This document shows, piece after piece, positions 20,284 through 54,316 of a stretch of DNA of 64,000 nucleotides. The stretch is taken from assembly GCF_003018115.1 (NCBI RefSeq), contig NZ_CP027457.1; one strand, 5' to 3'. The position numbers and the translations under genes are program-made. Position 1 is the stretch's first letter, and each line of letters begins with the position of its first letter. The notes under the pieces are model-generated. The model saw only the letters and a program-made list of their open reading frames with translations, did not search any database and was not told the DNA's origin. This stretch comes from Escherichia coli (lineage in GTDB: Bacteria; Pseudomonadota; Gammaproteobacteria; Enterobacterales; Enterobacteriaceae).

Positions 20284-20304
20284 GCCTGATACGTCGCATC
20301 AGGC
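20284..20304. terminator. Hairpin between convergent alkA and dgcE (terminator or REP-like)
   Basis: gcctgat-acgtcgc-atcaggc inverted repeat immediately after the alkA stop. Confidence 0.4.
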
Positions 20305-23956: not shown

Positions 23957-24598
23957 ATGACTGATCAGTCTCATCAGTGCGTCATTATCGGTATCGCTGG
24001 CGCATCGGCTTCCGGCAAGAGTCTTATTGCCAGTACCCTTTATCGTGAATTACGTGAGCAAGTCGGTGATGAACACATCGGCGTAATTCCCGAAGACTGC
24101 TATTACAAAGATCAAAGCCATCTGTCGATGGAAGAACGCGTTAAGACCAACTACGACCATCCCAGCGCGATGGATCACAGCCTGTTGCTTGAGCATTTAC
24201 AAGCGTTGAAACGCGGCTCGGCAATTGACCTGCCGGTTTACAGCTATGTTGAACATACGCGTATGAAAGAAACGGTGACGGTTGAGCCGAAGAAGGTCAT
24301 CATTCTCGAAGGCATTTTGTTGCTGACGGATGCGCGTTTGCGTGACGAACTTAACTTCTCCATTTTCGTTGATACCCCGCTGGATATCTGCCTGATGCGC
24401 CGCATCAAGCGTGACGTTAACGAGCGTGGGCGTTCAATGGATTCCGTGATGGCGCAATATCAAAAAACCGTGCGCCCGATGTTCCTGCAATTCATTGAGC
24501 CTTCTAAACAATATGCGGACATTATCGTGCCGCGCGGCGGGAAAAACCGCATCGCGATCGATATATTGAAAGCGAAAATAAGTCAGTTCTTTGAATAA
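23957..24598 (+). CDS. udk: Uridine kinase
   Basis: Start set at [22 protein letters not shown] (P-loop) inside track ORF 23894..24598. Confidence 0.9.
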
Positions 24599-29915: not shown

Positions 29916-29954
29916 CAGTGTATTGGTAGCTAAAAAGCCAGGGGCGGTAGCGTG
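29916..29954 (+). promoter_or_regulatory. JUMPstart element with ops site (GGCGGTAGCGTG) in the wza leader
   Basis: cagtgtattggtagctaaaaagccaggggcGGCGGTAGCGTG matches the 39-bp JUMPstart/ops motif used by RfaH. Confidence 0.8.
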
Positions 29955-33886: not shown

Positions 33887-33896
33887 CGACATCCGC

Positions 33897-34005
33897 TGTC
33901 GGATGCGATGCTGACGCATCTTATCCGACCTACCTTCACGCCGCATCCGGCAAGCAAACCAGCTCCGTAGGCCGGATAAGGCGCTCACGCCGCATCCGGC
34001 AACAG
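33897..34005. repeat. REP/BIME elements between wzc and wcaA
   Basis: Inverted copies of the REP motif (gtcggatgcg...cttatccgacctac and gtaggccggataaggcgctcacgccgcatccggca). Confidence 0.75.
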
Positions 34006-34063
34006 AACCCGTAAACAAGCTTATAAACCGGCAGAACATCTCGATACTCCGGGAGAACAACCT

Positions 34064-34903
34064 ATGAAAGACAATCCGCTGATCTCAATCTATATGCCGA
34101 CCTGGAACCGCCAACAACTGGCGATTCGGGCGATAAAATCGGTCCTGCGCCAGGACTACAGCAACTGGGAGATGATCATCGTGGATGATTGCTCCACCTC
34201 CTGGGAACAACTGCAACAGTACGTCACCGCCCTCAACGATCCGCGTATTACCTACATTCACAACGACATTAACAGCGGGGCGTGCGCGGTACGTAACCAG
34301 GCGATTATGCTGGCGCAAGGGGAATACATTACCGGGATCGATGACGATGATGAATGGACGCCCAACCGCCTGAGCGTCTTCCTCGCCCATAAACAGCAAC
34401 TGGTCACTCACGCCTTTTTGTACGCTAACGACTACGTATGCCAGGGAGAAGTTTATTCCCAACCGGCAAGCTTACCACTGTATCCCAAATCGCCGTACTC
34501 ACGCCGCCTGTTCTATAAACGCAATATCATTGGCAATCAGGTTTTTACCTGGGCGTGGCGTTTCAAAGAGTGCTTGTTCGATACCGAACTGAAAGCAGCA
34601 CAGGATTACGACATCTTCCTGCGGATGGTGGTGGAGTATGGCGAACCGTGGAAAGTGGAAGAGGCGACGCAGATCCTGCATATCAATCACGGTGAAATGC
34701 AGATCACCTCGTCACCGAAAAAATTCTCCGGGTACTTCCACTTTTACCGCAAGCACAAAGATAAATTTGACCGTGCAAGCAAAAAATATCAGCTGTTTAC
34801 CCTCTACCAGATCCGCAATAAACGTATGACCTGGCGCACTTTGCTGACGCTGCTTTCGGTGCGTAACGGCAAACGTCTGGCTGATGGTATTCGGGGGCGC
34901 TAA
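34064..34903 (+). CDS. wcaA: Colanic acid glycosyltransferase WcaA (GT2)
   Basis: 279 aa, GT2 motifs (IIVDDCS, DDDDEW); cluster position. Confidence 0.9.
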   Translation: MKDNPLISIYMPTWNRQQLAIRAIKSVLRQDYSNWEMIIVDDCSTSWEQLQQYVTALNDPRITYIHNDINSGACAVRNQAIMLAQGEYITGIDDDDEWTPNRLSVFLAHKQQLVTHAFLYANDYVCQGEVYSQPASLPLYPKSPYSRRLFYKRNIIGNQVFTWAWRFKECLFDTELKAAQDYDIFLRMVVEYGEPWKVEEATQILHINHGEMQITSSPKKFSGYFHFYRKHKDKFDRASKKYQLFTLYQIRNKRMTWRTLLTLLSVRNGKRLADGIRGR

Positions 34904-34905
34904 AG

Positions 34906-35394
34906 ATGCTGGAAGATCTGCGCGCCAACAGCTGGAGTTTACGTCCGTGCTGCATGGTTCTAGCCTATCGCGTCGCTCATTTTTGTTCGGTGTGGCGCAA
35001 AAAGAACGTCCTCAACAATCTGTGGGCGGCCCCGCTGCTGGTGCTGTATCGCATTATCACCGAATGCTTTTTCGGTTATGAAATCCAGGCCGCCGCGACC
35101 ATTGGCCGCCGCTTTACTATCCATCACGGTTACGCCGTAGTGATCAATAAAAACGTGGTAGCGGGGGATGATTTCACCATTCGCCACGGCGTCACTATCG
35201 GCAATCGTGGTGCCGATAACATGGCATGTCCACATATTGGCAACGGCGTCGAACTCGGTGCCAACGTTATTATTCTTGGTGATATCACGCTTGGTAACAA
35301 CGTCACCGTGGGTGCGGGCAGCGTGGTGCTCGACTCTGTCCCGGACAACGCGCTGGTGGTGGGAGAAAAAGCGCGAGTGAAGGTAATTAAATGA
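34906..35394 (+). CDS. wcaB: Colanic acid acetyltransferase WcaB (hexapeptide repeat)
   Basis: 162 aa with left-handed beta-helix hexapeptide repeats. Confidence 0.9.
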   Translation: MLEDLRANSWSLRPCCMVLAYRVAHFCSVWRKKNVLNNLWAAPLLVLYRIITECFFGYEIQAAATIGRRFTIHHGYAVVINKNVVAGDDFTIRHGVTIGNRGADNMACPHIGNGVELGANVIILGDITLGNNVTVGAGSVVLDSVPDNALVVGEKARVKVIK

Positions 35395-36608
35395 ATATTT
35401 TGCAATTTAATGTGCGACTGGCGGAAGGCGGGGCAGCAGGTGTGGCGTTAGATCTCCACCAGCGTGCGCTGCAACAGGGGCTAGCGTCACATTTTGTCTA
35501 CGGTTACGGCAAAGGCGGCAAAGAGAGCGTCAGCCATCAAAACTATCCGCAGGTCATCAAACATACGCCGCGGATGACTGCAATGGCGAATATTGTCCTG
35601 TTTCGTCTGTTTAATCGCGATCTGTTTGGCAATTTCAATGAGTTATATCGCACCATTACTCGCACACCGGGTCCGGTGGTCCTGCATTTTCATGTGCTGC
35701 ACAGCTACTGGCTAAATCTTAAGAGCGTGGTGCGCTTTTGCGAAAAAGTGAAAAACCATAAACCGGACGTCACTCTGGTCTGGACGCTGCACGACCACTG
35801 GAGTGTTACCGGACGCTGCGCCTTTACCGACGGTTGCGAAGGCTGGAAAACAGGCTGCCAGAAATGCCCGACCTTAAATAATTATCCGCCGGTGAAGATT
35901 GATCGGGCGCACCAGCTGGTGGCGGGCAAACGCCAGTTATTCCGTGAGATGCTGGCGCTGGGCTGTCAGTTTATTTCCCCCAGCCAGCATGTGGCTGACG
36001 CTTTCAATAGCCTGTACGGTCCAGGGCGTTGCCGGATTATCAATAACGGTATTGATATGGCAACCGAAGCGATTCTGGCGGATCTGCCTCCGGTGCGCGA
36101 AACCCAGGGTAAGCCGAAAATCGCGGTGGTGGCGCATGACCTGCGTTACGACGGCAAGACTAACCAGCAACTGGTGCGTGAGATGATGGCGCTGGGCGAC
36201 AAAATCGAACTGCATACCTTTGGTAAGTTCTCGCCGTTCACCGCTGGTAACGTGGTTAATCACGGCTTTGAAACCGACAAACGTAAGCTGATGAGCGCGC
36301 TCAATCAGATGGATGCGCTGGTATTCAGTTCTCGCGTCGATAACTACCCGCTGATTTTGTGTGAGGCGCTATCGATTGGCGTGCCGGTGATTGCCACCCA
36401 TAGCGACGCGGCGCGGGAAGTGCTGCAAAAATCCGGCGGTAAAACCGTCAGCGAAGAAGACGTGCTGCAACTGGTGCAGTTAAGCAAACCGGAAATCGCG
36501 CAGGCGATATTTGGTACCACGTTGGCCGGGTTCAGCCAACGTAGCCGCGCCGCCTACAGTGGACAACAGATGCTGGAGGAGTATGTCAACTTCTATCAGA
36601 ATCTGTAG
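35391..36608 (+). CDS. wcaC: Colanic acid glycosyltransferase WcaC (GT4)
   Basis: 405 aa; cluster position. Confidence 0.9.
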   Translation: MNILQFNVRLAEGGAAGVALDLHQRALQQGLASHFVYGYGKGGKESVSHQNYPQVIKHTPRMTAMANIVLFRLFNRDLFGNFNELYRTITRTPGPVVLHFHVLHSYWLNLKSVVRFCEKVKNHKPDVTLVWTLHDHWSVTGRCAFTDGCEGWKTGCQKCPTLNNYPPVKIDRAHQLVAGKRQLFREMLALGCQFISPSQHVADAFNSLYGPGRCRIINNGIDMATEAILADLPPVRETQGKPKIAVVAHDLRYDGKTNQQLVREMMALGDKIELHTFGKFSPFTAGNVVNHGFETDKRKLMSALNQMDALVFSSRVDNYPLILCEALSIGVPVIATHSDAAREVLQKSGGKTVSEEDVLQLVQLSKPEIAQAIFGTTLAGFSQRSRAAYSGQQMLEEYVNFYQNL

Positions 36609-37800
36609 CTACCTGCTGCTGCCGCTGATCTACCTGCTGGTTAACGTCAAAATCGCCCAGCTTGGTGAAAGTTTCCCCATCACTATCGTCACTTTTTTAC
36701 CTGTCTTGTTACTGCTGTTTTTAGAACGCATCAGCGTTAAAAAATTGATGATTGCCTTAGGGGTTGGCGCGGGGCTCACGGCGTTCAACTATCTGTTTGG
36801 TCAGTCGTTGGATGCCAGTAAATACGTCACTTCAACCATGCTGTTTGTCTATATTGTGATCATTATTGGCATGGTGTGGAGTATTCGCTTTAAAACGATT
36901 TCGCCACACAACCATCGCAAGATATTACGTTTCTTTTATCTGGTGGTCGGGCTGGTGGTGGCGCTGGCGGCGGTGGAGATGGCGCAAATTATCCTCACCG
37001 GTGGCAGCAGTATTATGGAGTCGATTTCGAAATATCTGATTTATAGCAACAGCTATGTACTGAATTTCATTAAATTCGGCGGCAAGCGCACGACAGCACT
37101 TTATTTCGAACCGGCATTTTTCGCTCTGGCATTAATCTCAATTTGGCTCAGCATCAAACAGTTTGGTATCAAAACGCCTAAAACAGATGCTATGATTCTC
37201 GCAGGGATAATATTATCCGGATCGTTTTCAGGGGTTATGACCTTTATCCTGTTTTATTTGCTGGAGTGGGCATTCCAATATCTGAATAAAGAGGCGATTA
37301 AGAAAAAGTTACCGTTAGCATTGATTTCTCTGGCTGTATTCCTGGTTGGTGTGGTAATCGCGTTTCCTTATATTTCCACCCGTCTGGGCGATTTAGGTAC
37401 GGAAGGATCGTCATCGTATTATCGTATTGTCGGTCCGCTGGTGATGGTCGGTTATTCTTTGACCCATATTGACGGTGTAGTCAGATTTGGCTCACTTTAT
37501 GAATATGTCGCATCATTCGGAATATTTAACGGTGCGGATGTCGGAAAAACCATAGACAATGGTTTGTATCTGCTGATTATTTATTTTTCCTGGTTCGCGG
37601 TGTTTTTATCGCTGTGGTACATGGGGAAAGTGATAAAAATGATGATCAACGCTTTTGGTGATAACCGCAATTTTCGCGTGCAATTATATCTTTTTACTCC
37701 GGTTTCGCTGTTTTTTACCGGTTCGATATTTAGCCCGGAATATGCATTTTTAATCGTCTGTCCGTTTATTTTGCGAAAAGCGTTAAATATTACGAGGTAA
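36583..37800 (+). CDS. wcaD: Colanic acid polymerase WcaD
   Basis: Start at [15 protein letters not shown] inside track ORF 36511..37800; polytopic membrane protein. Confidence 0.85.
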
Positions 37801-37810
37801 GAATAAGAAC

Positions 37811-38557
37811 ATGTTGCTTAGCATAATCACTGTCGCGTTTCGTAACCTCGAAGGGATAGTCAAAACACATGCCTCGCTGGCGCATCTGGCGCAGGCGGAC
37901 GATATCAGCTTCGAATGGATTGTTGTCGATGGCGGTTCCAACGACGGTACCCGTGAGTATCTGGAGAATCTCAATAGTATCTATAACCTACGCTTTGTCA
38001 GCGAGCCAGATAACGGTATCTACGACGCCATGAACAAGGGCATTGCGATGGCACAAGGCAAGTTCGCGTTGTTTCTCAACTCGGGCGATATTTTTCATCA
38101 GGATGCCGCAAATTTTGTTCGTAAGTTAAAAATGCAAAAAGATAACGTGATGATCACCGGCGATGCGCTGCTGGATTTTGGCGACGGGCATAAAATTAAG
38201 CGTAGTGCTAAACCGGGTTGGTATATTTATCACAGCCTGCCCGCCAGCCATCAGGCGATATTTTTCCCGGTATCCGGTTTGAAAAAATGGCGTTATGACC
38301 TGGAATATAAAGTTTCTTCTGATTACGCGCTGGCAGCTAAAATGTATAAAGCAGGTTATGCATTTAAAAAACTCAATGGCCTGGTGTCTGAATTTTCCAT
38401 GGGTGGGGTATCAACCACCAATAATATGGAATTGTGTGCTGACGCCAAAAAAGTCCAACGGCAGATATTACATGTGCCTGGCTTCTGGGCAGAATTATCC
38501 TGGCATTTACGCCAACGTACTACCTCAAAGACGAAAGCCTTATATAACAAAAGCTGA
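37811..38557 (+). CDS. wcaE: Colanic acid glycosyltransferase WcaE (GT2)
   Basis: 248 aa; cluster position. Confidence 0.9.
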
Positions 38558-38572
38558 ATATAAGGGAAAACG

Positions 38573-39121
38573 ATGCAGGATTTAAGCGGTTTCTCGGTGC
38601 CGAAAGGGTTCCGGGGCGGCAACGCTATTAAAGTGCAATTATGGTGGGCAGTACAGGCAACAATATTTGCCTGGTCGCCACAAGTATTGTATCGCTGGCG
38701 GGCTTTTTTATTACGTTTATTCGGAGCAAAAATAGGAAAAAACGTAGTTATTCGTCCGTCAGTAAAAATTACCTATCCGTGGAAATTAACCTTAGGTGAT
38801 TACGCGTGGGTCGGCGATGACGTCAATTTATATACCCTCGGTGAAATAACCATTGGCGCACATTCGGTGATATCGCAAAAAAGTTATTTATGCACCGGTA
38901 GCCACGACCATGCAAGTCAACATTTCACCATTAACGCCACGCCTATTGTGATTGGCGAGAAATGCTGGCTGGCAACCGATGTCTTTGTTGCCCCAGGCGT
39001 CACAATCGGCGACGGCACTGTCGTGGGTGCACGAAGCAGTGTTTTTAAATCGCTTCCGGCAAATGTGGTTTGCCGGGGGAATCCCGCAGTGGTGATACGC
39101 GAACGCGTTGAAACTGAATAA
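38573..39121 (+). CDS. wcaF: Colanic acid acetyltransferase WcaF (hexapeptide repeat)
   Basis: 182 aa; cluster position. Confidence 0.9.
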   Translation: MQDLSGFSVPKGFRGGNAIKVQLWWAVQATIFAWSPQVLYRWRAFLLRLFGAKIGKNVVIRPSVKITYPWKLTLGDYAWVGDDVNLYTLGEITIGAHSVISQKSYLCTGSHDHASQHFTINATPIVIGEKCWLATDVFVAPGVTIGDGTVVGARSSVFKSLPANVVCRGNPAVVIRERVETE

Positions 39122-39146
39122 ATTCAAAAATACAGAGGAATAAGAC

Positions 39147-40268
39147 ATGTCAAAAGTCGCTCTCATCACCGGTGTAACCGGACAAGACGGTTCTTACCTG
39201 GCAGAGTTTCTGCTGGAAAAAGGTTACGAGGTGCATGGTATTAAGCGTCGCGCATCGTCATTCAACACCGAGCGCGTGGATCACATTTATCAGGATCCGC
39301 ACACCTGCAACCCGAAATTCCATCTGCATTATGGCGACCTGAGTGATACCTCTAACCTGACGCGCATTTTGCGTGAAGTACAGCCGGATGAAGTGTACAA
39401 CCTGGGGGCAATGAGCCACGTTGCGGTCTCTTTTGAGTCACCAGAATATACCGCTGACGTCGACGCGATGGGTACGCTGCGCCTGCTGGAGGCGATCCGC
39501 TTCCTCGGTCTGGAAAAGAAAACCCGTTTTTATCAGGCTTCCACCTCTGAACTGTACGGTCTGGTGCAGGAAATTCCGCAGAAAGAAACCACGCCGTTCT
39601 ACCCGCGATCTCCGTATGCGGTCGCCAAACTGTACGCCTACTGGATCACCGTTAACTACCGCGAATCCTACGGCATGTACGCCTGTAACGGTATTCTCTT
39701 CAACCATGAATCCCCGCGCCGCGGTGAAACCTTCGTTACCCGCAAAATCACCCGCGCAATCGCCAATATCGCCCAGGGGCTGGAGTCGTGCCTGTACCTC
39801 GGCAATATGGATTCCCTGCGTGACTGGGGCCATGCCAAAGACTACGTAAAAATGCAGTGGATGATGCTGCAACAGGAACAGCCGGAAGATTTCGTTATTG
39901 CTACCGGCGTTCAGTACTCCGTACGTCAGTTCGTGGAAATGGCGGCAGCACAGTTGGGCATCAAACTGCGCTTTGAAGGCACGGGTGTTGAAGAGAAGGG
40001 CATTGTGGTTTCCGTCACCGGGCATGACGCGCCGGGCGTTAAACCGGGTGATGTGATTATCGCCGTTGATCCGCGTTACTTCCGTCCGGCAGAAGTTGAA
40101 ACGCTGCTCGGCGACCCGACCAAAGCGCACGAAAAACTGGGCTGGAAACCGGAAATCACCCTCAGAGAGATGGTGTCTGAAATGGTGGCTAATGACCTCG
40201 AAGCGGCGAAAAAACACTCTCTGCTGAAATCTCACGGCTACGACGTGGCGATCGCGCTGGAGTCATAA
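39147..40268 (+). CDS. gmd: GDP-mannose 4,6-dehydratase
   Basis: 373 aa; [31 protein letters not shown] matches Gmd. Confidence 0.95.
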
Positions 40269-40270
40269 GC

Positions 40271-41236
40271 ATGAGTAAACAACGCATTTTTATCGCTGGC
40301 CATCGTGGGATGGTCGGTTCTGCCATCAAGCGGCAGCTCGAACAGCGCGGTGATGTGGATCTGGTATTACGTACCCGCGACGAGCTGAACCTGCTGGACA
40401 GCCGCGCCGTGCATGATTTCTTTGCCAGCGAACGCATTGACCAGGTCTATCTGGCGGCGGCGAAAGTGGGCGGCATTGTTGCCAACAACACCTATCCGGC
40501 GGATTTCATCTACCAGAACATGATGATTGAGAGCAACATCATTCACGCCGCGCATCAGAACGACGTGAACAAACTGCTGTTTCTCGGATCGTCCTGCATC
40601 TACCCGAAACTGGCAAAACAGCCGATGGCAGAAAGCGAGTTATTGCAGGGCACGCTGGAGCCGACCAACGAGCCTTACGCCATTGCCAAAATCGCCGGGA
40701 TCAAACTGTGCGAATCTTACAATCGCCAGTACGGACGAGATTACCGCTCGGTCATGCCGACCAACCTGTATGGCCCGCATGACAACTTCCACCCGAGTAA
40801 TTCGCATGTGATCCCAGCATTGCTGCGTCGCTTCCACGAGGCGACGGCACAGAATGCGCCGGACGTGGTGGTGTGGGGCAGCGGTACACCGATGCGTGAA
40901 TTCCTGCACGTCGATGATATGGCGGCGGCGAGCATTCATGTGATGGAGCTGGCGCACGAAGTCTGGCTGGAAAACACCCAGCCGATGCTGTCGCACATTA
41001 ACGTCGGCACGGGCGTTGACTGCACTATCCGCGAGCTGGCGCAAACCATCGCCAAAGTGGTGGGTTACAAAGGTCGGGTGGTTTTTGATGCCAGTAAACC
41101 GGATGGTACGCCGCGCAAACTGCTTGATGTGACGCGCCTGCATCAGCTTGGCTGGTATCACGAAATCTCACTGGAAGCGGGGCTTGCCAGCACTTACCAG
41201 TGGTTCCTTGAGAATCAAGACCGCTTTCGGGGGTAA
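40271..41236 (+). CDS. fcl: GDP-L-fucose synthase (WcaG)
   Basis: 321 aa; [19 protein letters not shown]ossmann motif; follows gmd. Confidence 0.95.
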
Positions 41237-41238
41237 TG

Positions 41239-41718
41239 ATGTTTTTACGTCAGGAAGACTTTGCCACGGTAGTGCGCTCCACACCGCTTGTCTCTCTCGA
41301 CTTTATTGTCGAGAACAGTCGCGGCGAGTTTCTGCTTGGCAAAAGAACCAACCGCCCGGCGCAGGGTTACTGGTTTGTGCCGGGAGGGCGCGTGCAGAAA
41401 GACGAAACGCTGGAAGCCGCATTCGAGCGGCTGACGATGGCGGAACTGGGGCTGCGTCTGCCGATAACAGCAGGCCAGTTTTACGGTGTCTGGCAGCACT
41501 TTTATGACGATAACTTCTCCGGCACGGATTTCACCACTCACTATGTGGTGCTCGGTTTTCGCTTCAGAGTCGCTGAAGAAGATCTGATACTGCCGGATGA
41601 GCAGCATGACGATTACCGCTGGCTGACGCCGGACGCGCTGCTCGCCAGTAACGATGTTCACGCTAACAGCCGCGCCTATTTTCTCGCTGAGAAGCGTGCC
41701 GGAGTACCCGGATTATGA
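41239..41718 (+). CDS. gmm: GDP-mannose mannosyl hydrolase (Nudix; WcaH)
   Basis: About 159 aa, [24 protein letters not shown]...; track ORF begins one codon earlier (41236). Confidence 0.9.
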
Positions 41719-42938
41719 AAATACTGGTCTACGGCATTAACTACTCGCCGGAGTTAACCGGTATCGGCAAATACACCGGCGAGATGGTGGAATGGCTGGC
41801 GGCACAAGGTCATGAGGTGCGGGTTATTACCGCACCGCCTTACTACCCGCAGTGGCAGGTGGGTGAGAACTATTCCGCCTGGCGCTACAAACGAGAAGAG
41901 GGGGCCGCCACGGTGTGGCGCTGCCCGCTGTATGTGCCAAAACAGCCGAGCACCCTGAAACGCCTGTTGCATCTCGGCAGTTTTGCCGTCAGCAGTTTCT
42001 TTCCACTGATGGCGCAACGTCGCTGGAAGCCGGATCGCATTATCGGCGTAGTGCCAACGCTGTTTTGCACGCCGGGAATGCGCCTGCTGGCGAAGCTCTC
42101 TGGTGCGCGTACCGTGCTGCATATTCAGGATTACGAAGTGGACGCCATGCTGGGGCTGGGCCTTGCCGGAAAAGGCAAAGGCGGCAAAGTGGCACAGCTG
42201 GCAACGGCGTTCGAACGTAGCGGACTGCATAACGTCGATAACGTTTCCACGATTTCGCGTTCGATGATGAATAAAGCCATCGAAAAAGGCGTGGCGGCGG
42301 ATAACGTCATCTTCTTCCCCAACTGGTCGGAAATTGCCCGTTTTCAACATGTTGCAGACGCCGATGTTGATGCCCTTCGTAACCAGCTTGGCCTGCCGGA
42401 TAACAAAAAAATCATTCTTTACTCCGGCAATATTGGTGAAAAGCAGGGGCTGGAAAACGTTATTGAAGCTGCCGATCGTCTGCGCGATGAACCGCTGATT
42501 TTTGCCATTGTCGGGCAGGGCGGCGGCAAAGCGCGGCTGGAAAAAATGGCGCAGCAGCGTGGACTGCGCAACATGCAATTTTTCCCGCTGCAATCGTATG
42601 ACGCTTTACCCGCACTGCTGAAGATGGGCGATTGCCATCTGGTGGTGCAAAAACGCGGCGCGGCAGATGCCGTATTGCCGTCGAAACTGACCAATATTCT
42701 GGCGGTAGGCGGTAACGCGGTGATTACCGCAGAGGCCCACACAGAACTGGGGCAGCTTTGCGAAACCTTTCCGGGCATTGCGGTTTGCGTAGAACCGGAA
42801 TCGGTCGAGGCGCTGGTGGCGGGGATCCGTCAGGCGCTCCTGCTGCCCAAACACAACACGGTGGCACGTGAATATGCCGAACGCACACTCGATAAAGAGA
42901 ACGTGTTACGTCAATTTATAAATGATATTCGGGGATAA
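41715..42938 (+). CDS. wcaI: Colanic acid glycosyltransferase WcaI (GT4)
   Basis: 407 aa; cluster position. Confidence 0.9.
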
Positions 42939-42940
42939 TT

Positions 42941-44377
42941 ATGGCGCAGTCGAAACTCTATCCAGTTGTGATGGCAGGTGGCTCCGGTAGCCGCTTATGG
43001 CCGCTTTCCCGCGTACTTTACCCCAAGCAGTTTTTATGCCTGAAAGGCGATCTCACCATGCTGCAAACCACCATCTGCCGCCTGAACGGCGTGGAGTGCG
43101 AAAGCCCGGTGGTGATTTGCAATGAGCAGCACCGCTTTATTGTCGCGGAACAGCTGCGTCAACTGAACAAACTCACCGAGAACATTATTCTCGAACCGGC
43201 AGGGCGTAACACTGCACCTGCCATTGCACTGGCGGCGCTGGCGGCAAAACGTCATAGCCCGGAGAGCGACCCGTTAATGCTGGTATTGGCGGCGGATCAT
43301 GTGATTGCCGATGAAGACGCGTTCCGTGCCGCCGTGCGTAATGCCATGCCATATGCCGAAGCGGGCAAGCTGGTGACCTTCGGCATTGTGCCGGATCTAC
43401 CAGAAACCGGTTATGGCTATATTCGTCGCGGTGAAGTGTCTGCGGGTGAGCAGGATACGGTGGCCTTTGAAGTGGCGCAGTTTGTCGAAAAACCGAATCT
43501 GGAAACCGCCCAGGCCTATGTGGCAAGCGGCGAATATTACTGGAACAGCGGTATGTTCCTGTTCCGCGCCGGACGCTATCTCGAAGAACTGAAAAAATAT
43601 CGCCCGGATATTCTCGATGCCTGTGAAAAAGCGATGAGCGCCGTCGATCCGGATCTTGATTTTATTCGTGTGGATGAAGAAGCGTTTCTCGCCTGCCCGG
43701 AAGAGTCGGTGGATTACGCGGTCATGGAACGTACGGCAGATGCTGTTGTGGTGCCGATGGATGCGGGCTGGAGCGATGTTGGTTCCTGGTCTTCATTATG
43801 GGAGATCAGCGCCCACACCGCCGAGGGCAACGTTTGCCACGGCGATGTGATTAATCACAAAACTGAAAACAGCTATGTGTACGCCGAATCTGGCCTGGTC
43901 ACCACCGTCGGGGTGAAAGATCTGGTAGTGGTGCAGACCAAAGATGCGGTGCTGATTGCCGACCGTAACGCGGTGCAGGATGTGAAAAAAGTGGTCGAGC
44001 AGATCAAAGCCGATGGTCGCCATGAGCATCGGGTGCATCGCGAAGTGTATCGTCCGTGGGGCAAATATGACTCTATCGACGCGGGCGACCGCTACCAGGT
44101 GAAACGCATCACCGTGAAACCGGGCGAGGGCTTGTCGGTACAGATGCACCATCACCGCGCGGAACACTGGGTAGTGGTCGCGGGAACGGCAAAAGTCACC
44201 ATTGATGGTGATATCAAACTGCTTGGTGAAAACGAGTCCATTTATATTCCGCTGGGGGCGACGCACTGCCTGGAAAATCCGGGGAAAATTCCGCTCGATT
44301 TAATTGAAGTGCGCTCCGGCTCTTATCTCGAAGAGGATGATGTGGTGCGCTTCGCGGATCGCTACGGACGGGTGTAA
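42941..44377 (+). CDS. cpsB: Mannose-1-phosphate guanylyltransferase (ManC/CpsB)
   Basis: 478 aa; [24 protein letters not shown] nucleotidyltransferase motif plus C-terminal cupin domain. Confidence 0.95.
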
Positions 44378-44378
44378 A

Positions 44379-44482
<104 letters not shown>

Positions 44483-44569
44483 GAATGCGAAACCGAGATG
44501 TAAATAACGACAAAAACAAAATTGGCCGTTTCGGTCAGGGCCAACTATTGCCTGAAAAAGGGTAACGAC

Positions 44570-45940
44570 ATGAAAAAATTAACCTGCTTTAAAGCCTATG
44601 ATATTCGCGGGAAATTAGGCGAAGAACTGAATGAAGATATTGCCTGGCGCATTGGTCGTGCCTATGGCGAATTTCTCAAACCGAAAACCATTGTGTTAGG
44701 CGGTGATGTCCGTCTCACCAGCGAAACCTTAAAACTGGCGCTGGCAAAAGGTTTACAGGATGCGGGCGTCGATGTGCTGGATATCGGCATGTCCGGCACC
44801 GAAGAGATCTATTTCGCCACGTTCCATCTCGGCGTGGATGGCGGCATTGAAGTTACTGCCAGCCATAATCCGATGGATTACAACGGCATGAAACTGGTGC
44901 GCGAAGGGGCTCGCCCGATCAGCGGCGATACCGGACTGCGCGATGTCCAGCGTCTGGCAGAAGCCAACGACTTTCCTCCCGTTGATGCAACCAAACGCGG
45001 TCGCTATCAGCAAATCAATCTGCGTGACGCTTACGTTGATCACCTGTTCGGTTATATCAATGTCAAAAACCTCACGCCGCTCAAGCTGGTGATCAACTCC
45101 GGGAACGGCGCAGCGGGTCCGGTGGTGGACGCCATTGAAGCCCGCTTTAAAGCCCTCGGCGCGCCCGTGGAATTAATCAAAGTACACAACACACCGGACG
45201 GCAATTTCCCCAACGGTATTCCTAACCCGCTGCTACCGGAATGTCGCGACGACACCCGCAATGCGGTCATCAAACACGGCGCGGATATGGGCATTGCCTT
45301 TGATGGCGATTTTGACCGCTGTTTCCTGTTTGACGAAAAAGGGCAGTTTATCGAGGGCTATTACATTGTCGGCCTGCTGGCAGAAGCATTCCTCGAAAAA
45401 AATCCCGGCGCGAAGATCATCCACGATCCACGTCTCTCCTGGAACACCGTTGATGTGGTGACTGCCGCAGGTGGCACGCCGGTAATGTCGAAAACCGGAC
45501 ACGCCTTTATTAAAGAACGTATGCGCAAGGAGGACGCCATCTACGGTGGCGAAATGAGCGCTCACCATTACTTCCGTGATTTCGCTTACTGCGACAGCGG
45601 CATGATCCCGTGGCTACTGGTAGCCGAACTGGTGTGCCTGAAAGAGAAAACGCTGGGCGAACTGGTACGCGACCGGATGGTGGCGTTTCCGGCAAGCGGT
45701 GAGATCAACAGCAAACTGGCGCAACCCGCTGAGGCGATTAACCGCGTGGAACAGCATTTTAGCCGTGAGGCGCTGGCGGTGGATCGTACCGATGGCATCA
45801 GTATGACCTTTGCCGACTGGCGTTTTAACCTGCGCTCCTCCAACACCGAACCGGTGGTGCGGTTGAATGTGGAATCGCGCGGTGATGTGCCGCTGATGGA
45901 AGCGCGAACGCGAACTCTGCTGACGTTGCTGAACGAGTAA
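44570..45940 (+). CDS. cpsG: Phosphomannomutase (ManB/CpsG)
   Basis: Start at [14 protein letters not shown] inside track ORF 44522..45940; TASHNP active-site motif. Confidence 0.95.
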
Positions 45941-45994
45941 TGTCGGATCTTCCCTTACCCCACTGCGGGTAAGGGGCTAATAACAGGAACAACG

Positions 45995-47389
45995 ATGACA
46001 AATCTAAAAAAGCGCGAGCGAGCGAAAACCAATGCATCGTTAATCTCTATGGTGCAACGCTTTTCAGATATCACCATCATGTTTGCCGGACTATGGCTGG
46101 TTTGCGAAGTGAGCGGCCTGTCATTCCTCTACATGCACCTGTTGGTGGCACTGATTACGCTGGTGGTGTTCCAGATGCTGGGCGGCATCACCGATTTTTA
46201 TCGCTCATGGCGCGGTGTTCGGGCAGCGACAGAATTTGCTCTGTTGCTACAAAACTGGACGTTAAGCGTGATTTTCAGCGCCGGACTGGTGGCGTTCAAC
46301 AATGATTTCGACACGCAACTGAAAATCTGGCTGGCGTGGTATGGGCTGACCAGCATCGGACTGGTGGTTTGCCGTTCATGTATTCGTATTGGGGCGGGCT
46401 GGCTGCGTAATCATGGCTATAACAAGCGCATGGTCGCCGTAGCGGGGGATTTAGCCGCCGGACAAATGCTGATGGAGAGCTTCCGTAATCAGCCGTGGTT
46501 AGGGTTTGAAGTGGTGGGGGTTTACCACGACCCGAAACCGGGCGGCGTTTCTAACGACTGGGCGGGTAACCTGCAACAGCTGGTCGAGGATGCTAAAGCG
46601 GGTAAGATTCATAACGTCTATATCGCGATGCAAATGTGCGACGGCGCGCGAGTGAAAAAACTGGTCCATCAACTGGCGGACACCACCTGTTCGGTGCTGC
46701 TGATCCCCGATGTCTTTACCTTCAACATTCTCCATTCACGTCTCGAAGAGATGAACGGCGTTCCGGTGGTGCCGCTGTATGACACGCCGCTTTCCGGGGT
46801 TAACCGCCTGCTAAAACGTGCGGAAGACATTGTGCTGGCGACGCTGATCTTGCTGCTGATCTCCCCGGTGCTGTGCTGTATTGCGCTGGCGGTGAAACTC
46901 AGTTCACCTGGGCCGGTTATTTTCCGCCAGACTCGCTATGGCATGGATGGCAAGCCGATCAAAGTGTGGAAGTTCCGTTCCATGAAAGTGATGGAGAACG
47001 ACAAAGTGGTGACTCAGGCGACGCAGAACGATCCGCGCGTCACCAAAGTGGGGAACTTTCTGCGCCGCACCTCGCTGGATGAACTGCCGCAGTTTATCAA
47101 TGTGCTGACCGGGGGGATGTCGATTGTCGGTCCACGTCCGCACGCAGTAGCGCATAACGAACAGTATCGCCAGCTCATTGAAGGCTACATGCTGCGCCAC
47201 AAAGTGAAACCGGGCATTACCGGCTGGGCGCAGATTAATGGCTGGCGCGGCGAAACCGACACGCTGGAGAAAATGGAAAAACGCGTCGAGTTCGACCTTG
47301 AGTACATCCGCGAATGGAGCGTCTGGTTCGATATCAAAATCGTTTTCCTGACGGTGTTCAAAGGTTTCGTTAACAAAGCGGCATATTGA
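45995..47389 (+). CDS. wcaJ: Undecaprenyl-phosphate glucose-1-phosphate transferase WcaJ
   Basis: 464 aa, N-terminal TM region and C-terminal sugar-transferase domain. Confidence 0.95.
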   Translation: MTNLKKRERAKTNASLISMVQRFSDITIMFAGLWLVCEVSGLSFLYMHLLVALITLVVFQMLGGITDFYRSWRGVRAATEFALLLQNWTLSVIFSAGLVAFNNDFDTQLKIWLAWYGLTSIGLVVCRSCIRIGAGWLRNHGYNKRMVAVAGDLAAGQMLMESFRNQPWLGFEVVGVYHDPKPGGVSNDWAGNLQQLVEDAKAGKIHNVYIAMQMCDGARVKKLVHQLADTTCSVLLIPDVFTFNILHSRLEEMNGVPVVPLYDTPLSGVNRLLKRAEDIVLATLILLLISPVLCCIALAVKLSSPGPVIFRQTRYGMDGKPIKVWKFRSMKVMENDKVVTQATQNDPRVTKVGNFLRRTSLDELPQFINVLTGGMSIVGPRPHAVAHNEQYRQLIEGYMLRHKVKPGITGWAQINGWRGETDTLEKMEKRVEFDLEYIREWSVWFDIKIVFLTVFKGFVNKAAY

Positions 47390-47390
47390 T

Positions 47391-48869
47391 ATGAGCTTAC
47401 GTGAAAAAACCATCAGCGGCGCGAAGTGGTCGGCGATTGCCACGGTGATCATCATCGGCCTCGGGCTGGTGCAGATGACCGTGCTGGCGCGGATTATCGA
47501 CAACCACCAGTTCGGCCTGCTGACTGTGTCGCTGGTGATTATCGCGCTGGCAGATACGCTTTCTGACTTCGGTATCGCTAACTCGATTATTCAGCGAAAA
47601 GAAATCAGTCACCTTGAACTCACCACGTTGTACTGGCTGAACGTCGGGCTGGGGATCGTGGTGTGCGTGGCGGTGTTTTTGTTGAGTGATCTCATCGGCG
47701 ACGTGCTGAATAACCCGGACCTGGCACCGTTGATTAAAACATTGTCGCTGGCGTTTGTGGTGATCCCCCACGGGCAACAGTTCCGCGCGTTGATGCAGAA
47801 GGAGCTGGAGTTCAACAAAATCGGCATGATCGAAACCAGCGCGGTGCTGGCGGGCTTCACTTTTACGGTGGTTAGCGCCCATTTCTGGCCGCTGGCGATG
47901 ACCGCGATCCTCGGTTATCTGGTCAATAGTGCGGTAAGAACGCTGCTGTTTGGCTACTTTGGTCGAAAAATTTATCGCCCCGGTCTGCATTTCTCGCTGG
48001 CGTCAGTTGCGCCGAACTTACGCTTTGGTGCCTGGCTGACGGCGGACAGCATCATCAACTATCTCAACACCAACCTTTCAACGCTGGTGCTGGCGCGTAT
48101 TCTTGGCGCGGGCGTGGCAGGGGGATACAACCTGGCGTACAACGTGGCCGTCGTACCGCCGATGAAGCTGAACCCAATCATCACCCGCGTGTTATTTCCG
48201 GCATTCGCCAAAATTCAGGACGACACCGAAAAGTTGCGCGTGAACTTCTACAAGCTGCTGTCGGTGGTGGGGATTATCAACTTTCCGGCGCTGCTCGGGC
48301 TGATGGTGGTGTCGAATAACTTTGTACCGCTGGTCTTTGGTGAGAAGTGGAACAGCATTATTCCGGTGCTGCAATTGCTGTGTATTGTGGGTCTGCTGCG
48401 CTCCGTGGGTAACCCGATTGGTTCGCTGCTGATGGCGAAAGCGCGGGTCGATATCAGCTTTAAATTCAACGTATTCAAAACATTTCTGTTTATTCCGGCG
48501 ATTGTTATTGGTGGGCAGATGGCGGGCGCAATCGGCGTCACGCTCGGTTTCCTGCTGGTGCAGATTATCAACACCATTCTGAGTTACTTCGTGATGATTA
48601 AACCGGTACTCGGTTCCAGTTATCGCCAGTACATCCTGAGTTTGTGGCTGCCGTTTTATCTCTCGCTGCCGACGCTGGTGGTCAGTTATGCGCTGGGCAT
48701 TGTGCTGAAAGGGCAACTGGCGCTGGGGATGCTGCTGGCGGTGCAAATAGCCGCGGGCGTGCTGGCGTTTGTGGTGATGATTGTGCTGTCGCGCCATCCG
48801 CTGATGGTGGAAGTGAAGCGTCAGTTTTGTCGCAGCGAAAAAATGAAAATGCTTTTACGGGCGGGGTGA
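47391..48869 (+). CDS. wzxC: Colanic acid repeat-unit flippase WzxC
   Basis: 492 aa polytopic membrane protein; cluster position. Confidence 0.9.
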   Translation: MSLREKTISGAKWSAIATVIIIGLGLVQMTVLARIIDNHQFGLLTVSLVIIALADTLSDFGIANSIIQRKEISHLELTTLYWLNVGLGIVVCVAVFLLSDLIGDVLNNPDLAPLIKTLSLAFVVIPHGQQFRALMQKELEFNKIGMIETSAVLAGFTFTVVSAHFWPLAMTAILGYLVNSAVRTLLFGYFGRKIYRPGLHFSLASVAPNLRFGAWLTADSIINYLNTNLSTLVLARILGAGVAGGYNLAYNVAVVPPMKLNPIITRVLFPAFAKIQDDTEKLRVNFYKLLSVVGIINFPALLGLMVVSNNFVPLVFGEKWNSIIPVLQLLCIVGLLRSVGNPIGSLLMAKARVDISFKFNVFKTFLFIPAIVIGGQMAGAIGVTLGFLLVQIINTILSYFVMIKPVLGSSYRQYILSLWLPFYLSLPTLVVSYALGIVLKGQLALGMLLAVQIAAGVLAFVVMIVLSRHPLMVEVKRQFCRSEKMKMLLRAG

Positions 48870-48897
48870 GTTGCTGTTTTCGGTTCCGACAACGGTT

Positions 48898-48990
48898 GCC
48901 GGGTGCAGCGTAAAACGCCTTATCCATCCTACGGTTCTGTGCTCGGGACCTGTAGGCCTGATAAGACGCGCCAGCGTCGCATCAGGCAAA
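48898..48990. repeat. REP/BIME elements between wzxC and wcaK
   Basis: REP-like inverted motifs (gcgtaaaacgccttatccatcctac ... gtaggcctgataagacgcgccagcgtcgcatcaggc). Confidence 0.7.
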
Positions 48991-49048
48991 AAGCGGCAAC
49001 GAACACAACAAACACAGCCTCACCTGGCATCAAATTTATGAGGAAAAA

Positions 49049-50329
49049 ATGAAATTACTTATTCTGGGCAACCACACTTGCGGCAATCGTGGCGACAGTG
49101 CCATCTTGCGCGGCTTACTTGATGCCATCAACATCCTCAATCCACAAGCCGAAGTGGACGTGATGAGCCGCTATCCGGTCAGTTCTTCCTGGCTGCTCAA
49201 CCGCCCGGTAATGGGCGATCCGCTGTTCCTGCAAATGAAACAACACAACAGCGCGGCGGGCGTTGTCGGGCGCGTTAAAAAAGTCCTCCGTCGCCGCTAT
49301 CAACACCAGGTATTGCTCTCACGCGTCACCGACACTGGCAAGCTGCGTAATATCGCCATCGCCCAGGGATTCACCGACTTCGTGCGCATGCTCTCAGGTT
49401 ACGACGCCATTATTCAGGTCGGAGGATCGTTTTTTGTCGATCTCTACGGCGTGCCGCAGTTTGAACATGCGCTTTGCACGTTTATGGCGAAAAAGCCGCT
49501 GTTTATGATTGGTCACAGCGTCGGCCCCTTCCAGGATGAGCAATTTAACCAACTGGCGAACTACGTTTTTGGTCACTGTGACGCGCTGATCCTGCGCGAA
49601 TCGGTCAGCCTTGATTTGATGAAACGCAGCAATATCACCACTGCAAAAGTTGAACATGGCGTCGATACCGCGTGGCTGGTCGATCACCACACAGAAGATT
49701 TCACCGCCAGCTATGCCGTCCAACACTGGCTGGACGTTGCCGCACAACAGAAAACGGTGGCAATTACCCTGCGCGAACTGGCACCGTTTGACAAACGCCT
49801 CGGCACCACTCAACAAGCGTATGAAAAAGCCTTTGCCGGGGTGGTCAATCGCATTCTCGACGGAGGCTATCAGGTCATTGCGCTCTCCACCTGTACGGGC
49901 ATCGACAGCTATAACAAAGACGACCGCATGGTAGCGCTCAATCTGCGCCAGCACATCAGCGATCCTGCCCGTTACCACGTAGTGATGGATGAACTCAACG
50001 ATCTGGAAATGGGCAAAATTCTCGGGGCCTGTGAACTCACCGTCGGTACGCGCCTGCACTCCGCCATTATCTCGATGAATTTTGCCACTCCGGCAATTGC
50101 CATCAACTACGAACATAAATCCGCCGGGATCATGCAACAACTGGGGCTGCCAGAGATGGCGATTGATATCCGTCATTTACTGGACGGCAGCTTGCAAGCG
50201 ATGGTTGCGGATACCTTAGGCCAGCTTCCGGCGCTGAACGCACGACTTAACGAAGCCGTCAGTCGCGAACGTCAGACAGGAATGCAGATGGTGCAGTCTG
50301 TGCTTGAGCGCATCGGGGAGGCGAAATGA
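49049..50329 (+). CDS. wcaK: Colanic acid pyruvyl transferase WcaK
   Basis: 426 aa; cluster position. Confidence 0.9.
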   Translation: MKLLILGNHTCGNRGDSAILRGLLDAINILNPQAEVDVMSRYPVSSSWLLNRPVMGDPLFLQMKQHNSAAGVVGRVKKVLRRRYQHQVLLSRVTDTGKLRNIAIAQGFTDFVRMLSGYDAIIQVGGSFFVDLYGVPQFEHALCTFMAKKPLFMIGHSVGPFQDEQFNQLANYVFGHCDALILRESVSLDLMKRSNITTAKVEHGVDTAWLVDHHTEDFTASYAVQHWLDVAAQQKTVAITLRELAPFDKRLGTTQQAYEKAFAGVVNRILDGGYQVIALSTCTGIDSYNKDDRMVALNLRQHISDPARYHVVMDELNDLEMGKILGACELTVGTRLHSAIISMNFATPAIAINYEHKSAGIMQQLGLPEMAIDIRHLLDGSLQAMVADTLGQLPALNARLNEAVSRERQTGMQMVQSVLERIGEAK

Positions 50330-54277: not shown

Positions 54278-54316
54278 CAGTGCTCTGGTAGCTGTAAAGC
54301 CAGGGGCGGTAGCGTA
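54278..54316 (+). promoter_or_regulatory. JUMPstart element with ops-like site (GGCGGTAGCGTA) in the O-antigen operon leader
   Basis: cagtgctctggtagctgtaaagccaggggcggtagcgta; nearly identical to the element upstream of wza. Confidence 0.8.

What the first reader, a model, noticed from the sequence alone, without database searches (positions are those of the whole stretch)
33897..48990. REP/BIME clusters within the colanic acid operon
REP-type palindromes occupy three intergenic gaps inside the operon (wzc/wcaA, cpsB/cpsG, wzxC/wcaK). They may act as mRNA stability or partial termination points that set differential expression along this long operon.
Basis: partly seen in the sequence, partly recalled or inferred. 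Interest (0 to 1): 0.2.

Follow-up and report, generated by a model that had tools for sequence, protein, structure and literature searches.

The report
REP/BIME palindromes in colanic acid operon
Three gaps between genes of the E. coli colanic acid capsule operon hold ordinary REP/BIME palindromic repeats, already described in the literature; their copy number varies widely between strains, so at most one of them (after wzc) is likely to matter much for expression.

Summary
The window is E. coli (100% identical to strain EC93) and the three long gaps in the wza–wcaM operon each hold REP palindromes. wzc/wcaA has two full REPs plus a half. cpsB/cpsG and wzxC/wcaK each have one y+z2 BIME-2 unit, and cpsB/cpsG also has a half REP.

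None is new. Iguchi et al. 2011 reported REPs in exactly these three gaps, with indels between strains.

In 5,426 complete E. coli genomes the gaps are length-polymorphic in whole repeat units:
- wzc/wcaA: 92, 128 or 177 nt.
- cpsB/cpsG: about 101–104, 128, 192 or 280 nt. K-12 keeps only a half REP.
- wzxC/wcaK: about 72 to 661 nt, which is 0 to 6 units of 96 bp.

In about 70 other Enterobacteriaceae species the same loose junctions are filled by REPs or by an unrelated boxC-like palindrome family. wzc/wcaA is the most consistently structured.

The regulatory reading is only partly supported. The hairpins are stable (−18 to −22 kcal/mol) but have no U-tract. The operon carries a JUMPstart/ops element. 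K-12 array data show a drop of about 1 log2 only at wzc→wcaA. The conserved element of the cpsB/cpsG gap is the algC RNA motif, not the REPs.

Verdict: already known, low interest.

The parts
33898..33933 (-). REP, 36 nt, diverged y/z2-like. It reads ...CCTAC on the + strand, so GTAG is on the − strand. It starts 11 nt after the wzc stop codon (33884–33886).
   Evidence: Sequence; inverted-repeat arms (I3); half-site scan; RNA hairpin of −19.4 kcal/mol.
33939..33951 (+). Half REP: a y-type arm, CGCCGCATCCGGC, with no partner arm. With its flank it forms a direct repeat (CACGCCGCATCCGGCAA) with the arm at 33985–34001. This repeat bounds the 49-nt segment that is absent from the 128-nt allele.
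   Evidence: comparison of the window, K-12 and L083 alleles.
33967..34000 (+). REP, y type, with 0 mismatches in both consensus arms. It is the counterpart of the single REP in the K-12 wzc/wcaA gap.
   Evidence: (I5); hairpin of −20.9 kcal/mol.
44379..44391 (+). Half REP (z2 arm, CGTCGCATCAGGC), starting 2 nt after the cpsB stop codon. It is a direct repeat of 44467–44479, and the two copies bound the 88-nt BIME unit that K-12 lacks.
44399..44432 (-). REP, y type, 34 nt. It is the first half of a BIME-2 unit.
   Evidence: (I3); hairpin of −19.2 kcal/mol.
44444..44479 (+). REP, z2 type, 36 nt, with 1 mismatch to the strict consensus. It is the second half of the BIME-2 unit, after an 11-nt linker.
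   Evidence: (I5); hairpin of −18.2 kcal/mol.
44516..44565 (+). algC RNA motif (Rfam RF02929), immediately upstream of the cpsG start codon (44570). It is not a REP. It is the conserved part of this gap.
   Evidence: 78.2 bits against a gathering score of 33.8. Also found upstream of cpsG in Citrobacter, Enterobacter, Kluyvera and Kosakonia.
48898..48932 (-). REP, y type, degenerate (GCCGGGTGCAGCG...CCATCCTAC), forming only a weak hairpin. It is the first half of a BIME-2 unit.
   Evidence: hairpin of only −8.6 kcal/mol. The K-12 counterpart is intact.
48952..48987 (+). REP, z2 type, 36 nt, with 0 mismatches to the strict consensus. It is the second half of the BIME-2 unit, after a 19-nt linker.
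   Evidence: (I2); hairpin of −21.9 kcal/mol.
29916..29954 (+). JUMPstart element containing ops (GGCGGTAG at 29943–29950), upstream of wza. It is context for whether RNA polymerase would terminate at the REP gaps.
   Evidence: Rfam RF01707, 57.3 bits; sequence; ops match.

Best explanation
These are ordinary members of the E. coli REP family, arranged as one atypical cluster (wzc/wcaA) and two BIME-2 units of y+z2 type (cpsB/cpsG and wzxC/wcaK).

They are non-autonomous palindromic repeats, associated in E. coli with the RayT/TnpA-REP transposase. They have settled in the few junctions of the colanic acid operon where neighbouring genes are not translationally coupled. There they expand and contract in whole units, by recombination or slippage between their own direct repeats.

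Shown here: their identity, their positions, their unit-wise polymorphism, and the colonisation of the same loose junctions by other palindrome families in other genera.

Inferred: once transcribed, each REP forms a hairpin of about −20 kcal/mol that can slow 3'→5' exonucleases. This would modestly stabilise the mRNA segment upstream of it. The effect is most likely to matter after wzc, where it would favour wza-wzb-wzc over the downstream genes. RNA polymerase modified by RfaH through the JUMPstart/ops element would mostly read through. The cpsB/cpsG and wzxC/wcaK arrays are most likely near-neutral passengers with small, strain-variable effects.
For: - Identity. The window is 100% identical to the E. 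coli EC93 colanic acid cluster. REP consensus matches are far above chance. Arms are mapped. The y/z2 and BIME-2 definitions come from PMC3333891.
- Dispersed family. Each gap query hits many other places per genome, median 11. One such place is next to an annotated rayT gene (H182).
- Prior description. REPs in wcaK-wzxC, cpsG-cpsB and wcaA-wzc, with indels between strains, were reported in PMC3158064.
- Unit-wise polymorphism. Alleles are 92/128/177 nt, about 101/104/128/192/280 nt, and about 72/145/179/275/371/467/661 nt with a 96-bp period. Sequence-level dissection shows that direct repeats bound the units.
- Loose junctions only. In about 70 other species every other junction is 15 nt or less. 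The wzc/wcaA, cpsB/cpsG, cpsG/wcaJ, wcaF/gmd and wzxC/wcaK junctions carry REP-like or boxC-like palindromes.
- RNA effect. General precedent for REP stabilisers and BIME attenuation is in PMC6061677. A stem-loop attenuator after wzc is stated in PMC2516531. K-12 data show about a 1 log2 drop from wzc to wcaA.
Against: - No direct transcript data exist for this strain or for these alleles.
- The K-12 array values are fold changes, not absolute levels. They are noisy: wcaD–F recover to 7.2 after wcaA–C at about 5.6.
- The 'attenuator after wzc' statement in PMC2516531 cites a review, and I could not read the primary evidence.
- The high frequency of a strong hairpin at wzc/wcaA across genera could reflect selection, meaning a real function. 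It could equally reflect mere tolerance of insertions. This analysis cannot separate the two.
- Transposition or recombination by RayT at these loci is inferred from the family, not shown here.
Confidence: 0.7

Rival explanations
1. All three REP clusters are selected regulatory devices, acting as partial terminators or decay barriers that set a stepwise expression gradient along the operon.
For: - The hairpins are stable in all three gaps.
- There is precedent for BIME-associated attenuation and REP stabilisation.
- A stem-loop attenuator after wzc is stated, and similar stem-loops lie after wzc in Klebsiella cps clusters.
- About 60 nt of unstructured, A/C-rich spacer follows each cluster, before an independent Shine-Dalgarno sequence.
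Against: - There is no U-tract terminator on the + strand in any of the three gaps.
- JUMPstart/ops is present upstream of wza.
- Copy number ranges from 0 to 6 units among E. coli strains, and K-12 has no full REP in cpsB/cpsG.
- In K-12 there is no drop across wzxC/wcaK despite four REPs, and none across cpsB/cpsG.
- Of the 48 non-E. coli species where the wzxC/wcaK gap could be measured, 40 have a gap under 40 nt.
Confidence: 0.15
2. The function is at the DNA level. The two y+z2 BIME-2 units act as DNA gyrase binding and cleavage sites that relieve positive supercoiling ahead of polymerase on this 22-kb operon, which is rich in membrane-protein genes. Alternatively, they act as recombination junctions that help exchange the segment flanking the O-antigen cluster.
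For: - BIME-2 repeats are in vivo gyrase targets (Espéli & Boccard 1997, listed as a reference in PMC3333891).
- Both downstream clusters are y+z2.
- Iguchi et al. found that some REP indels coincide with junctions of sequence similarity in this region.
- In my searches some genomes match only downstream of the REP cluster: query positions 152–492 and 178–479. This suggests mosaic boundaries at these gaps.
Against: - Nothing here tests gyrase binding.
- The arrays are absent in some E. coli strains and in many other genera, without obvious consequence.
- Gene boundaries would be natural mosaic junctions even without REPs.
Confidence: 0.1
3. Translational control of the upstream gene. A REP hairpin within about 15 nt of a stop codon stalls the terminating ribosome and lowers output of that protein. 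This is the model I recall from Liang, Rudd and Deutscher, Mol Cell 2015, which I could not retrieve. It would apply to Wzc and CpsB in this strain.
For: - The first wzc/wcaA REP stem starts 11 nt after the wzc stop codon.
- In the cpsB/cpsG gap the predicted fold pairs the half REP, starting 1–2 nt after the cpsB stop, with the y REP arm.
Against: - The paper could not be read here, so the rule rests on memory.
- In K-12 the single wzc/wcaA REP lies 24 nt from the stop codon, and the cpsB half REP has no partner. The arrangement is therefore not conserved even within E. coli.
- The wzxC stop codon is 28 nt from its REP.
Confidence: 0.05

Closest known systems
E. coli REP (PU) sequences of y and z2 type, and BIME-2 arrays
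   Same: The consensus arms match, including the GTAG/CTAC foot and the internal mismatch in the stem. The elements are 34–36 nt long. y and z2 sit in inverted pairs with short linkers. The units repeat in tandem, and copy number varies between strains. The location is extragenic.
   Different: Nothing essential differs. The wzc/wcaA cluster is not a y+z2 pair: it is a diverged REP, a half REP and a y REP, so it is an 'atypical' BIME. The y REP at 48898–48932 is degenerate.
REP mRNA stabilisers inside operons (malE–malF, hisJ–hisQ)
   Same: REP hairpins lie in an intercistronic gap of a polycistronic mRNA, downstream of a cistron expected to be needed at a higher level. Here that would be the export machinery wza-wzb-wzc.
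   Different: No transcript or half-life data exist for this locus. Copy number is not fixed within the species.
Stem-loop attenuator after wzc in group 1 capsule (cps) clusters of E. coli K30 and Klebsiella, read through with RfaH/JUMPstart
   Same: The position is the same, immediately after wzc. The operon logic is the same, with JUMPstart/ops upstream. One paper states that the colanic acid operon has such an attenuator.
   Different: Here the structure is supplied by dispersed REPs and has no U-tract. In other genera it is supplied by boxC-like palindromes. The Klebsiella examples were predicted as Rho-independent attenuators.
naRNA4 / REP325-derived nucleoid-associated RNA (Rfam RF02564)
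   Same: The cpsB/cpsG BIME resembles this REP-derived RNA model, scoring 41.1, 31.7 and 28.9 bits.
   Different: All matches are below the gathering score of 59.5. The resemblance only reflects shared REP sequence.
boxC-like nested palindromes (CCCTCACCC…CCCTCTCCC/GGGAGAGGG…GGGTGAGGG)
   Same: They occupy the same operon junctions in Enterobacter, Lelliottia, Kluyvera, Pseudocitrobacter and other genera. They also occupy wzxC/wcaK in the E. coli B lineage.
   Different: The sequence family is unrelated to REP, and the window contains no copy. The name 'boxC' is from memory and was not checked against a reference set.

Membership tests
REP (E. coli y/z2 types) | An imperfect palindrome of 34–36 nt matching the y or z2 consensus arms, with the GTAG/CTAC tetranucleotide at the foot | tested here: met
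   0–1 mismatches to the strict 36-nt consensus for two copies; arms with 0–3 mismatches for all eight elements. The consensus I used is from memory. The y/z2/GTAG definition is from PMC3333891.
REP (E. coli y/z2 types) | An internal mismatch or bulge in the hairpin stem | tested here: met
   The folds show an internal loop between the outer and inner helices in every full copy.
REP (E. coli y/z2 types) | A dispersed, high-copy, extragenic family within the genome | tested here: met
   All copies here are intergenic. The gap queries hit a median of 11 places, and up to 30, per E. coli genome. One of those places flanks an annotated rayT gene (H182).
BIME-2 | One y and one z2 REP in inverse orientation, separated by a short linker | tested here: met
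   Met for 44399–44479 (11-nt linker) and 48898–48987 (19-nt linker). Not met for the wzc/wcaA cluster, which is atypical.
BIME-2 | Tandem repetition of the unit, with copy number varying between strains | tested here: met
   The 88-bp unit is present 0, 1 or 2 times at cpsB/cpsG. The 96-bp unit is present 0 to 6 times at wzxC/wcaK.
BIME-2 | Binding and cleavage by DNA gyrase | not testable with these tools
   This needs gyrase ChIP or quinolone cleavage mapping.
REP mRNA stabiliser / BIME attenuator (functional class) | A stable hairpin in the sense transcript within an intercistronic gap | tested here: met
   z about −4.3; −18 to −22 kcal/mol per REP, except −8.6 for the degenerate y copy.
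REP mRNA stabiliser / BIME attenuator (functional class) | The upstream mRNA segment is more abundant or longer-lived than the downstream segment, in a REP-dependent way | tested here: inconclusive
   Only K-12 fold-change data were found. They show about a 1 log2 drop at wzc→wcaA and none at the other two gaps. No 3'-end entries for these genes were found in the Term-seq supplements that are held.
Intrinsic (Rho-independent) terminator | A GC-rich hairpin followed directly by a U-tract on the transcribed strand | tested here: not met
   There is no + strand terminator-like site within any of the three gaps.
algC RNA motif (RF02929), 3' part of the cpsB/cpsG gap | A covariance-model score above Rfam's gathering threshold, in a position upstream of a phosphomannomutase gene | tested here: met
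   78.2 bits against 33.8, ending 4 nt before the cpsG ATG. The motif is present in 4 of 7 other genera tested.

The most novel reading that the evidence does not exclude
The wzc/wcaA junction may be under selection to carry a strong RNA hairpin. That hairpin would be supplied again and again by whichever mobile palindrome family is active in the host: REP in Escherichia and Citrobacter, boxC-like elements in Enterobacter, Lelliottia, Kluyvera and others. This would be convergent domestication of selfish repeats as an operon-internal attenuator or stabiliser. By extension, the unit-number polymorphism of the BIME-2 arrays at cpsB/cpsG and wzxC/wcaK (0 to 6 units) would act as a strain-level tuning knob for capsule gene stoichiometry.
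Probability: 0.2. Interest if true: 0.45.

Novelty: already known. Interest (0 to 1): 0.12.

Why it matters
It matters little as a discovery. REPs in these exact gaps, their indels between strains, the BIME-2 architecture and the idea of a stem-loop attenuator after wzc are all already in the literature.

The practical value is for annotation:
- The long gaps in this operon are explained by repeat insertions.
- Their lengths are strain markers.
- The conserved regulatory candidate before cpsG is the algC motif, not the REPs.

The cross-genus pattern would be a tidy example of repeat domestication if selection could be shown. In that pattern, different palindrome families fill the same loose junctions, and wzc/wcaA is filled most consistently.

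Tried and rejected
- A fuzzy-regex REP scan timed out. I replaced it with Hamming half-site scans.
- A first shuffle z-score run timed out. I reran it with fewer shuffles in parallel.
- The RefSeq K-12 record in this collection shows no repeat_region features for the cluster, so REP names from K-12 annotation could not be used.
- Liang et al. 2015 (REP and translation) could not be retrieved by DOI or PMID.
- Supplements of the Dar & Sorek Term-seq paper are not held. The Adams et al. 2021 3'-end tables contain none of the six genes, as expected for an operon that is silent in standard culture.
- Searches for RNA-seq tables covering the whole operon found only the colicin M array paper.
- A search for literature on the algC motif found nothing.
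- My first cross-genus conclusion, that wzxC/wcaK is bare outside Escherichia, was biased. The loci ended 73 nt into wcaK, which censored long gaps. I corrected this.
- Internal promoters in the gaps were rejected: there are no sigma-70-like sites.
- The palindrome at 24390–24410 was rejected as a REP. It has no GTAG foot and looks like a chance palindrome.
Full report
**What the window is.** The stretch 33000–49500 is 100% identical to the chromosome of E. coli strain EC93. It lies in the colanic acid cluster, with wza at 30133 through wcaM ending at 52951, all on the + strand. Most neighbouring genes in the cluster overlap or sit within about 25 nt of each other. Three junctions are long:
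- wzc/wcaA, 33887–34063, 177 nt
- cpsB/cpsG, 44378–44569, 192 nt
- wzxC/wcaK, 48870–49048, 179 nt

**Observation check.** Reading the gaps shows the familiar REP arms GCCGGATGCGGCG…CGCCTTATCCGGCCTAC (y type) and GCCTGATGCGACG…CGTCTTATCAGGCCTAC (z2 type).
- A strict 36-nt degenerate consensus with up to 3 mismatches finds two copies, 44444–44479 and 48952–48987. None are found in 100 dinucleotide-preserving shuffles.
- A half-site scan places eight full or partial REPs in the three gaps. Outside them it finds only one short REP at 20280–20304. A palindrome at 24390–24410 has no GTAG foot and looks like chance.
- Inverted-repeat detection recovers the stems.
- Each gap folds better as RNA than all 200 shuffles, with z of −4.4, −4.3 and −4.3.
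- Single REP hairpins are −18 to −22 kcal/mol. The exception is the degenerate y copy at 48898–48932, at −8.6.

The observation and its coordinates are therefore correct.

**Anatomy.** Ton-Hoang et al. define BIME-2 as y plus z2 in inverse orientation with a short linker, repeated in tandem, with copy number variable between strains (PMC3333891).
- The cpsB/cpsG cluster is a y REP, an 11-nt linker and a z2 REP. A half z2 arm precedes it.
- The wzxC/wcaK cluster is a degenerate y REP, a 19-nt linker and a z2 REP.
- Both of these are single BIME-2 units.
- The wzc/wcaA cluster is atypical: a diverged REP, a half y arm and a perfect y REP.

**Polymorphism within E. coli.** K-12 MG1655 has gaps of 92, 104 and 275 nt. 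These hold one REP, only a half REP, and four REPs respectively. I searched each gap with 150-nt flanks against 5,426 complete genomes and read allele lengths from evenly spaced samples of 60 records.
- wzc/wcaA: 177, 128 or 92 nt. The K-12-like 92-nt form is about half of the sample.
- cpsB/cpsG: 192 nt in the majority, with about 280, 128, 104 and 101 nt also seen.
- wzxC/wcaK: about 72, 145, 179, 275, 371, 467 and 661 nt.

Fetching representative alleles showed the following:
- The cpsB/cpsG variants differ by an 88-bp unit bounded by the direct repeat CGTCGCATCAGGC.
- The wzxC/wcaK variants differ by a 96-bp unit present 0 to 6 times. The empty site reads CGGCAACGAAC.
- The wzc/wcaA 177-nt form equals the 128-nt form plus a 49-nt segment bounded by CACGCCGCATCCGGCAA.
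- One cpsB/cpsG allele (101 nt) has no REP trace at all.
- The E. coli B lineage has a boxC-like element in wzxC/wcaK instead of REPs.

This is the known behaviour of BIMEs. Iguchi et al. [quoted passage not shown] They also reported that a REP is conserved in wcaA-wzc in all their strains (PMC3158064).

**Other genera.** Using WcaF as a probe I fetched the cluster from 80 species-level genomes of Enterobacteriaceae and measured every junction from wza to wcaK.
- Twelve junctions have a median gap of 15 nt or less.
- wzc/wcaA is loose: median 108 nt, 63 of 70 at least 60 nt, and 53 of 70 folding at −25 kcal/mol or better.
- cpsB/cpsG is loose: median 110 nt.
- cpsG/wcaJ is loose: median 74 nt, with 34 of 68 strongly folded.
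- wcaF/gmd is loose in a minority (11 of 78 at least 60 nt).
- wzxC/wcaK is loose in a minority. It is bare in 40 of 48 measured loci, but about 10 of 15 loci that ran off the fetched DNA, plus several measured ones, carry palindromes.

The fillers are REP-like in Citrobacter and Escherichia. In Enterobacter, Lelliottia, Kluyvera, Pseudocitrobacter, Pseudenterobacter and others they belong to an unrelated family of nested palindromes (CCCTCACCC–CCCTCTCCC…GGGAGAGGG–GGGTGAGGG). Some form arrays of 299–353 nt. That family is dispersed over several junctions in those loci and absent from this window. A few genera, including Pseudescherichia, Silvania and Yokenella, have bare wzc/wcaA gaps of 20–34 nt.

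That was biased, because the fetched loci ended 73 nt into wcaK. correct it.

**What the elements probably do.** REP hairpins can protect upstream mRNA from 3' exonucleases, many Rho-dependent transcripts end at such structures, and BIMEs can attenuate transcription. This is summarised with primary references in PMC6061677.

For this operon specifically:
- None of the three gaps has a + strand hairpin followed by a U-tract, and none has a sigma-70-like promoter.
- A JUMPstart element with ops (GGCGGTAG, 29943–29950) precedes wza. It is conserved in other genera. By established knowledge this loads RfaH and suppresses termination downstream.
[quoted passage not shown] Comparable stem-loops after wzc are predicted in Klebsiella cps clusters (PMC3438125).
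- The only per-gene expression series I found is K-12 after colicin M, as log2 fold change at 60 min (PMC3599342). The values are:
  - wza/wzb/wzc: 7.1/6.3/6.7
  - wcaA/B/C: 5.7/5.7/5.5
  - wcaD–F: 7.2–7.3
  - cpsB: 5.10 and cpsG: 5.15
  - wzxC: 4.45 and wcaK: 4.45
  - wcaM: 2.7

There is thus a possible step after wzc, where K-12 has one REP. There is none at cpsB/cpsG, where K-12 has no full REP. There is none at wzxC/wcaK, where K-12 has four REPs.

Together with the 0-to-6-unit polymorphism, this argues that only the wzc/wcaA structure is a serious candidate for a selected role. The other two arrays look like tolerated passengers with at most small, strain-variable effects. Term-seq tables that I could search contain none of these genes, as expected for an operon that is silent in standard culture.

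The last 50 nt before the cpsG start codon (44516–44565) match the Rfam algC RNA motif at 78.2 bits against a threshold of 33.8. The motif is also found in the same place in Citrobacter, Enterobacter, Kluyvera and Kosakonia. It explains why the baseline gap is about 105–110 nt across genera. An RNAfold prediction pairs UUGCCU with GGGUAA, which would cover the Shine-Dalgarno region. This pairing is not part of the Rfam consensus structure. The BIME itself gives only sub-threshold matches to the REP-derived naRNA4 model.

**Verdict.** The elements are ordinary REP/BIME-2 repeats, already described at these exact positions. The regulatory interpretation is a standard hypothesis that is plausible for wzc/wcaA and weakly supported elsewhere. 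Novelty: already known. Interest is low. The one reading with some novelty is convergent filling of the wzc/wcaA junction by different palindrome families under selection. It needs allele-swap and transcript-end experiments to distinguish it from simple tolerance of insertions.

Noticed in passing
window 44516-44565 (+): An algC RNA motif (Rfam RF02929, 78.2 bits) lies directly upstream of cpsG. It is conserved in the same position in Citrobacter, Enterobacter, Kluyvera and Kosakonia. It is the conserved part of the cpsB/cpsG gap. In an RNAfold prediction its 3' part may pair over the cpsG Shine-Dalgarno sequence.
   Followed up: partly
window 45951-45976 (cpsG/wcaJ gap 45941-45994): A fourth structured junction. 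A perfect 10-bp hairpin, CCCTTACCCC-ACTGCG-GGGTAAGGGG (−17.1 kcal/mol), sits in the 54-nt cpsG/wcaJ gap. In many other genera this junction is longer and holds boxC-like palindromes (21 of 68 species).
   Followed up: partly
L008, L014, L018, L031, L037, L043, L046, L048, L051, L068, L075 and others, about 5130-5490 (wzc/wcaA gap): In Enterobacter, Lelliottia, Kluyvera, Pseudocitrobacter and other genera the wzc/wcaA gap is filled by nested boxC-like palindromes. Folding energy is −0.5 to −0.76 kcal/mol per nt, and some form arrays of 299–353 nt. The same family recurs at the cpsG/wcaJ, wcaF/gmd and wzxC/wcaK junctions.
   Followed up: partly
L090 151-311 (E. coli B lineage, wzxC/wcaK gap): E. 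coli B-type strains carry a different 161-nt wzxC/wcaK gap, with a boxC-like element (CCCTCACCCTAACCCTCTCCCCAGGGGGCGAGGGG) instead of REPs. The end of wzxC also diverges. About 3 of the 60 sampled records are of this type.
   Followed up: partly
window 44378 and 48897 boundaries; hits H120-H121, H174-H181: Some E. coli genomes match the query only from the REP cluster onward. The 3' end of cpsB or of wzxC is too divergent for megablast, while cpsG or wcaK is conserved. This suggests mosaic or recombination boundaries at these gaps, as Iguchi et al. 2011 proposed.
   Followed up: no
window 29916-29954 and 54278-54316 (+): There are two JUMPstart elements with ops. One is upstream of wza and one is upstream of the O-antigen cluster after galF. 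GGCGGTAG occurs 8 times in the window against 1.27 expected. One copy lies inside wcaI at 42701–42708 on the sense strand.
   Followed up: no
window 13622-14427 (-): Three tandem SIB RNA (Sib antitoxin) copies are present: 13622–13764, 13950–14092 and 14279–14427, scoring 142–150 bits. K-12 has, from memory, two at the corresponding sibA/sibB locus.
   Followed up: no
window 20280-20304: A short solitary REP, GTAGGCCTGATACGTCGCATCAGGC, lies outside the operon. It is the only other REP-like element in the window with both arms.
   Followed up: no
window 44370-44536: The cpsB/cpsG BIME gives sub-threshold matches to Rfam naRNA4 (the REP325-derived nucleoid-associated RNA). The scores are 41.1, 31.7 and 28.9 bits against a gathering score of 59.5.
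   Followed up: no
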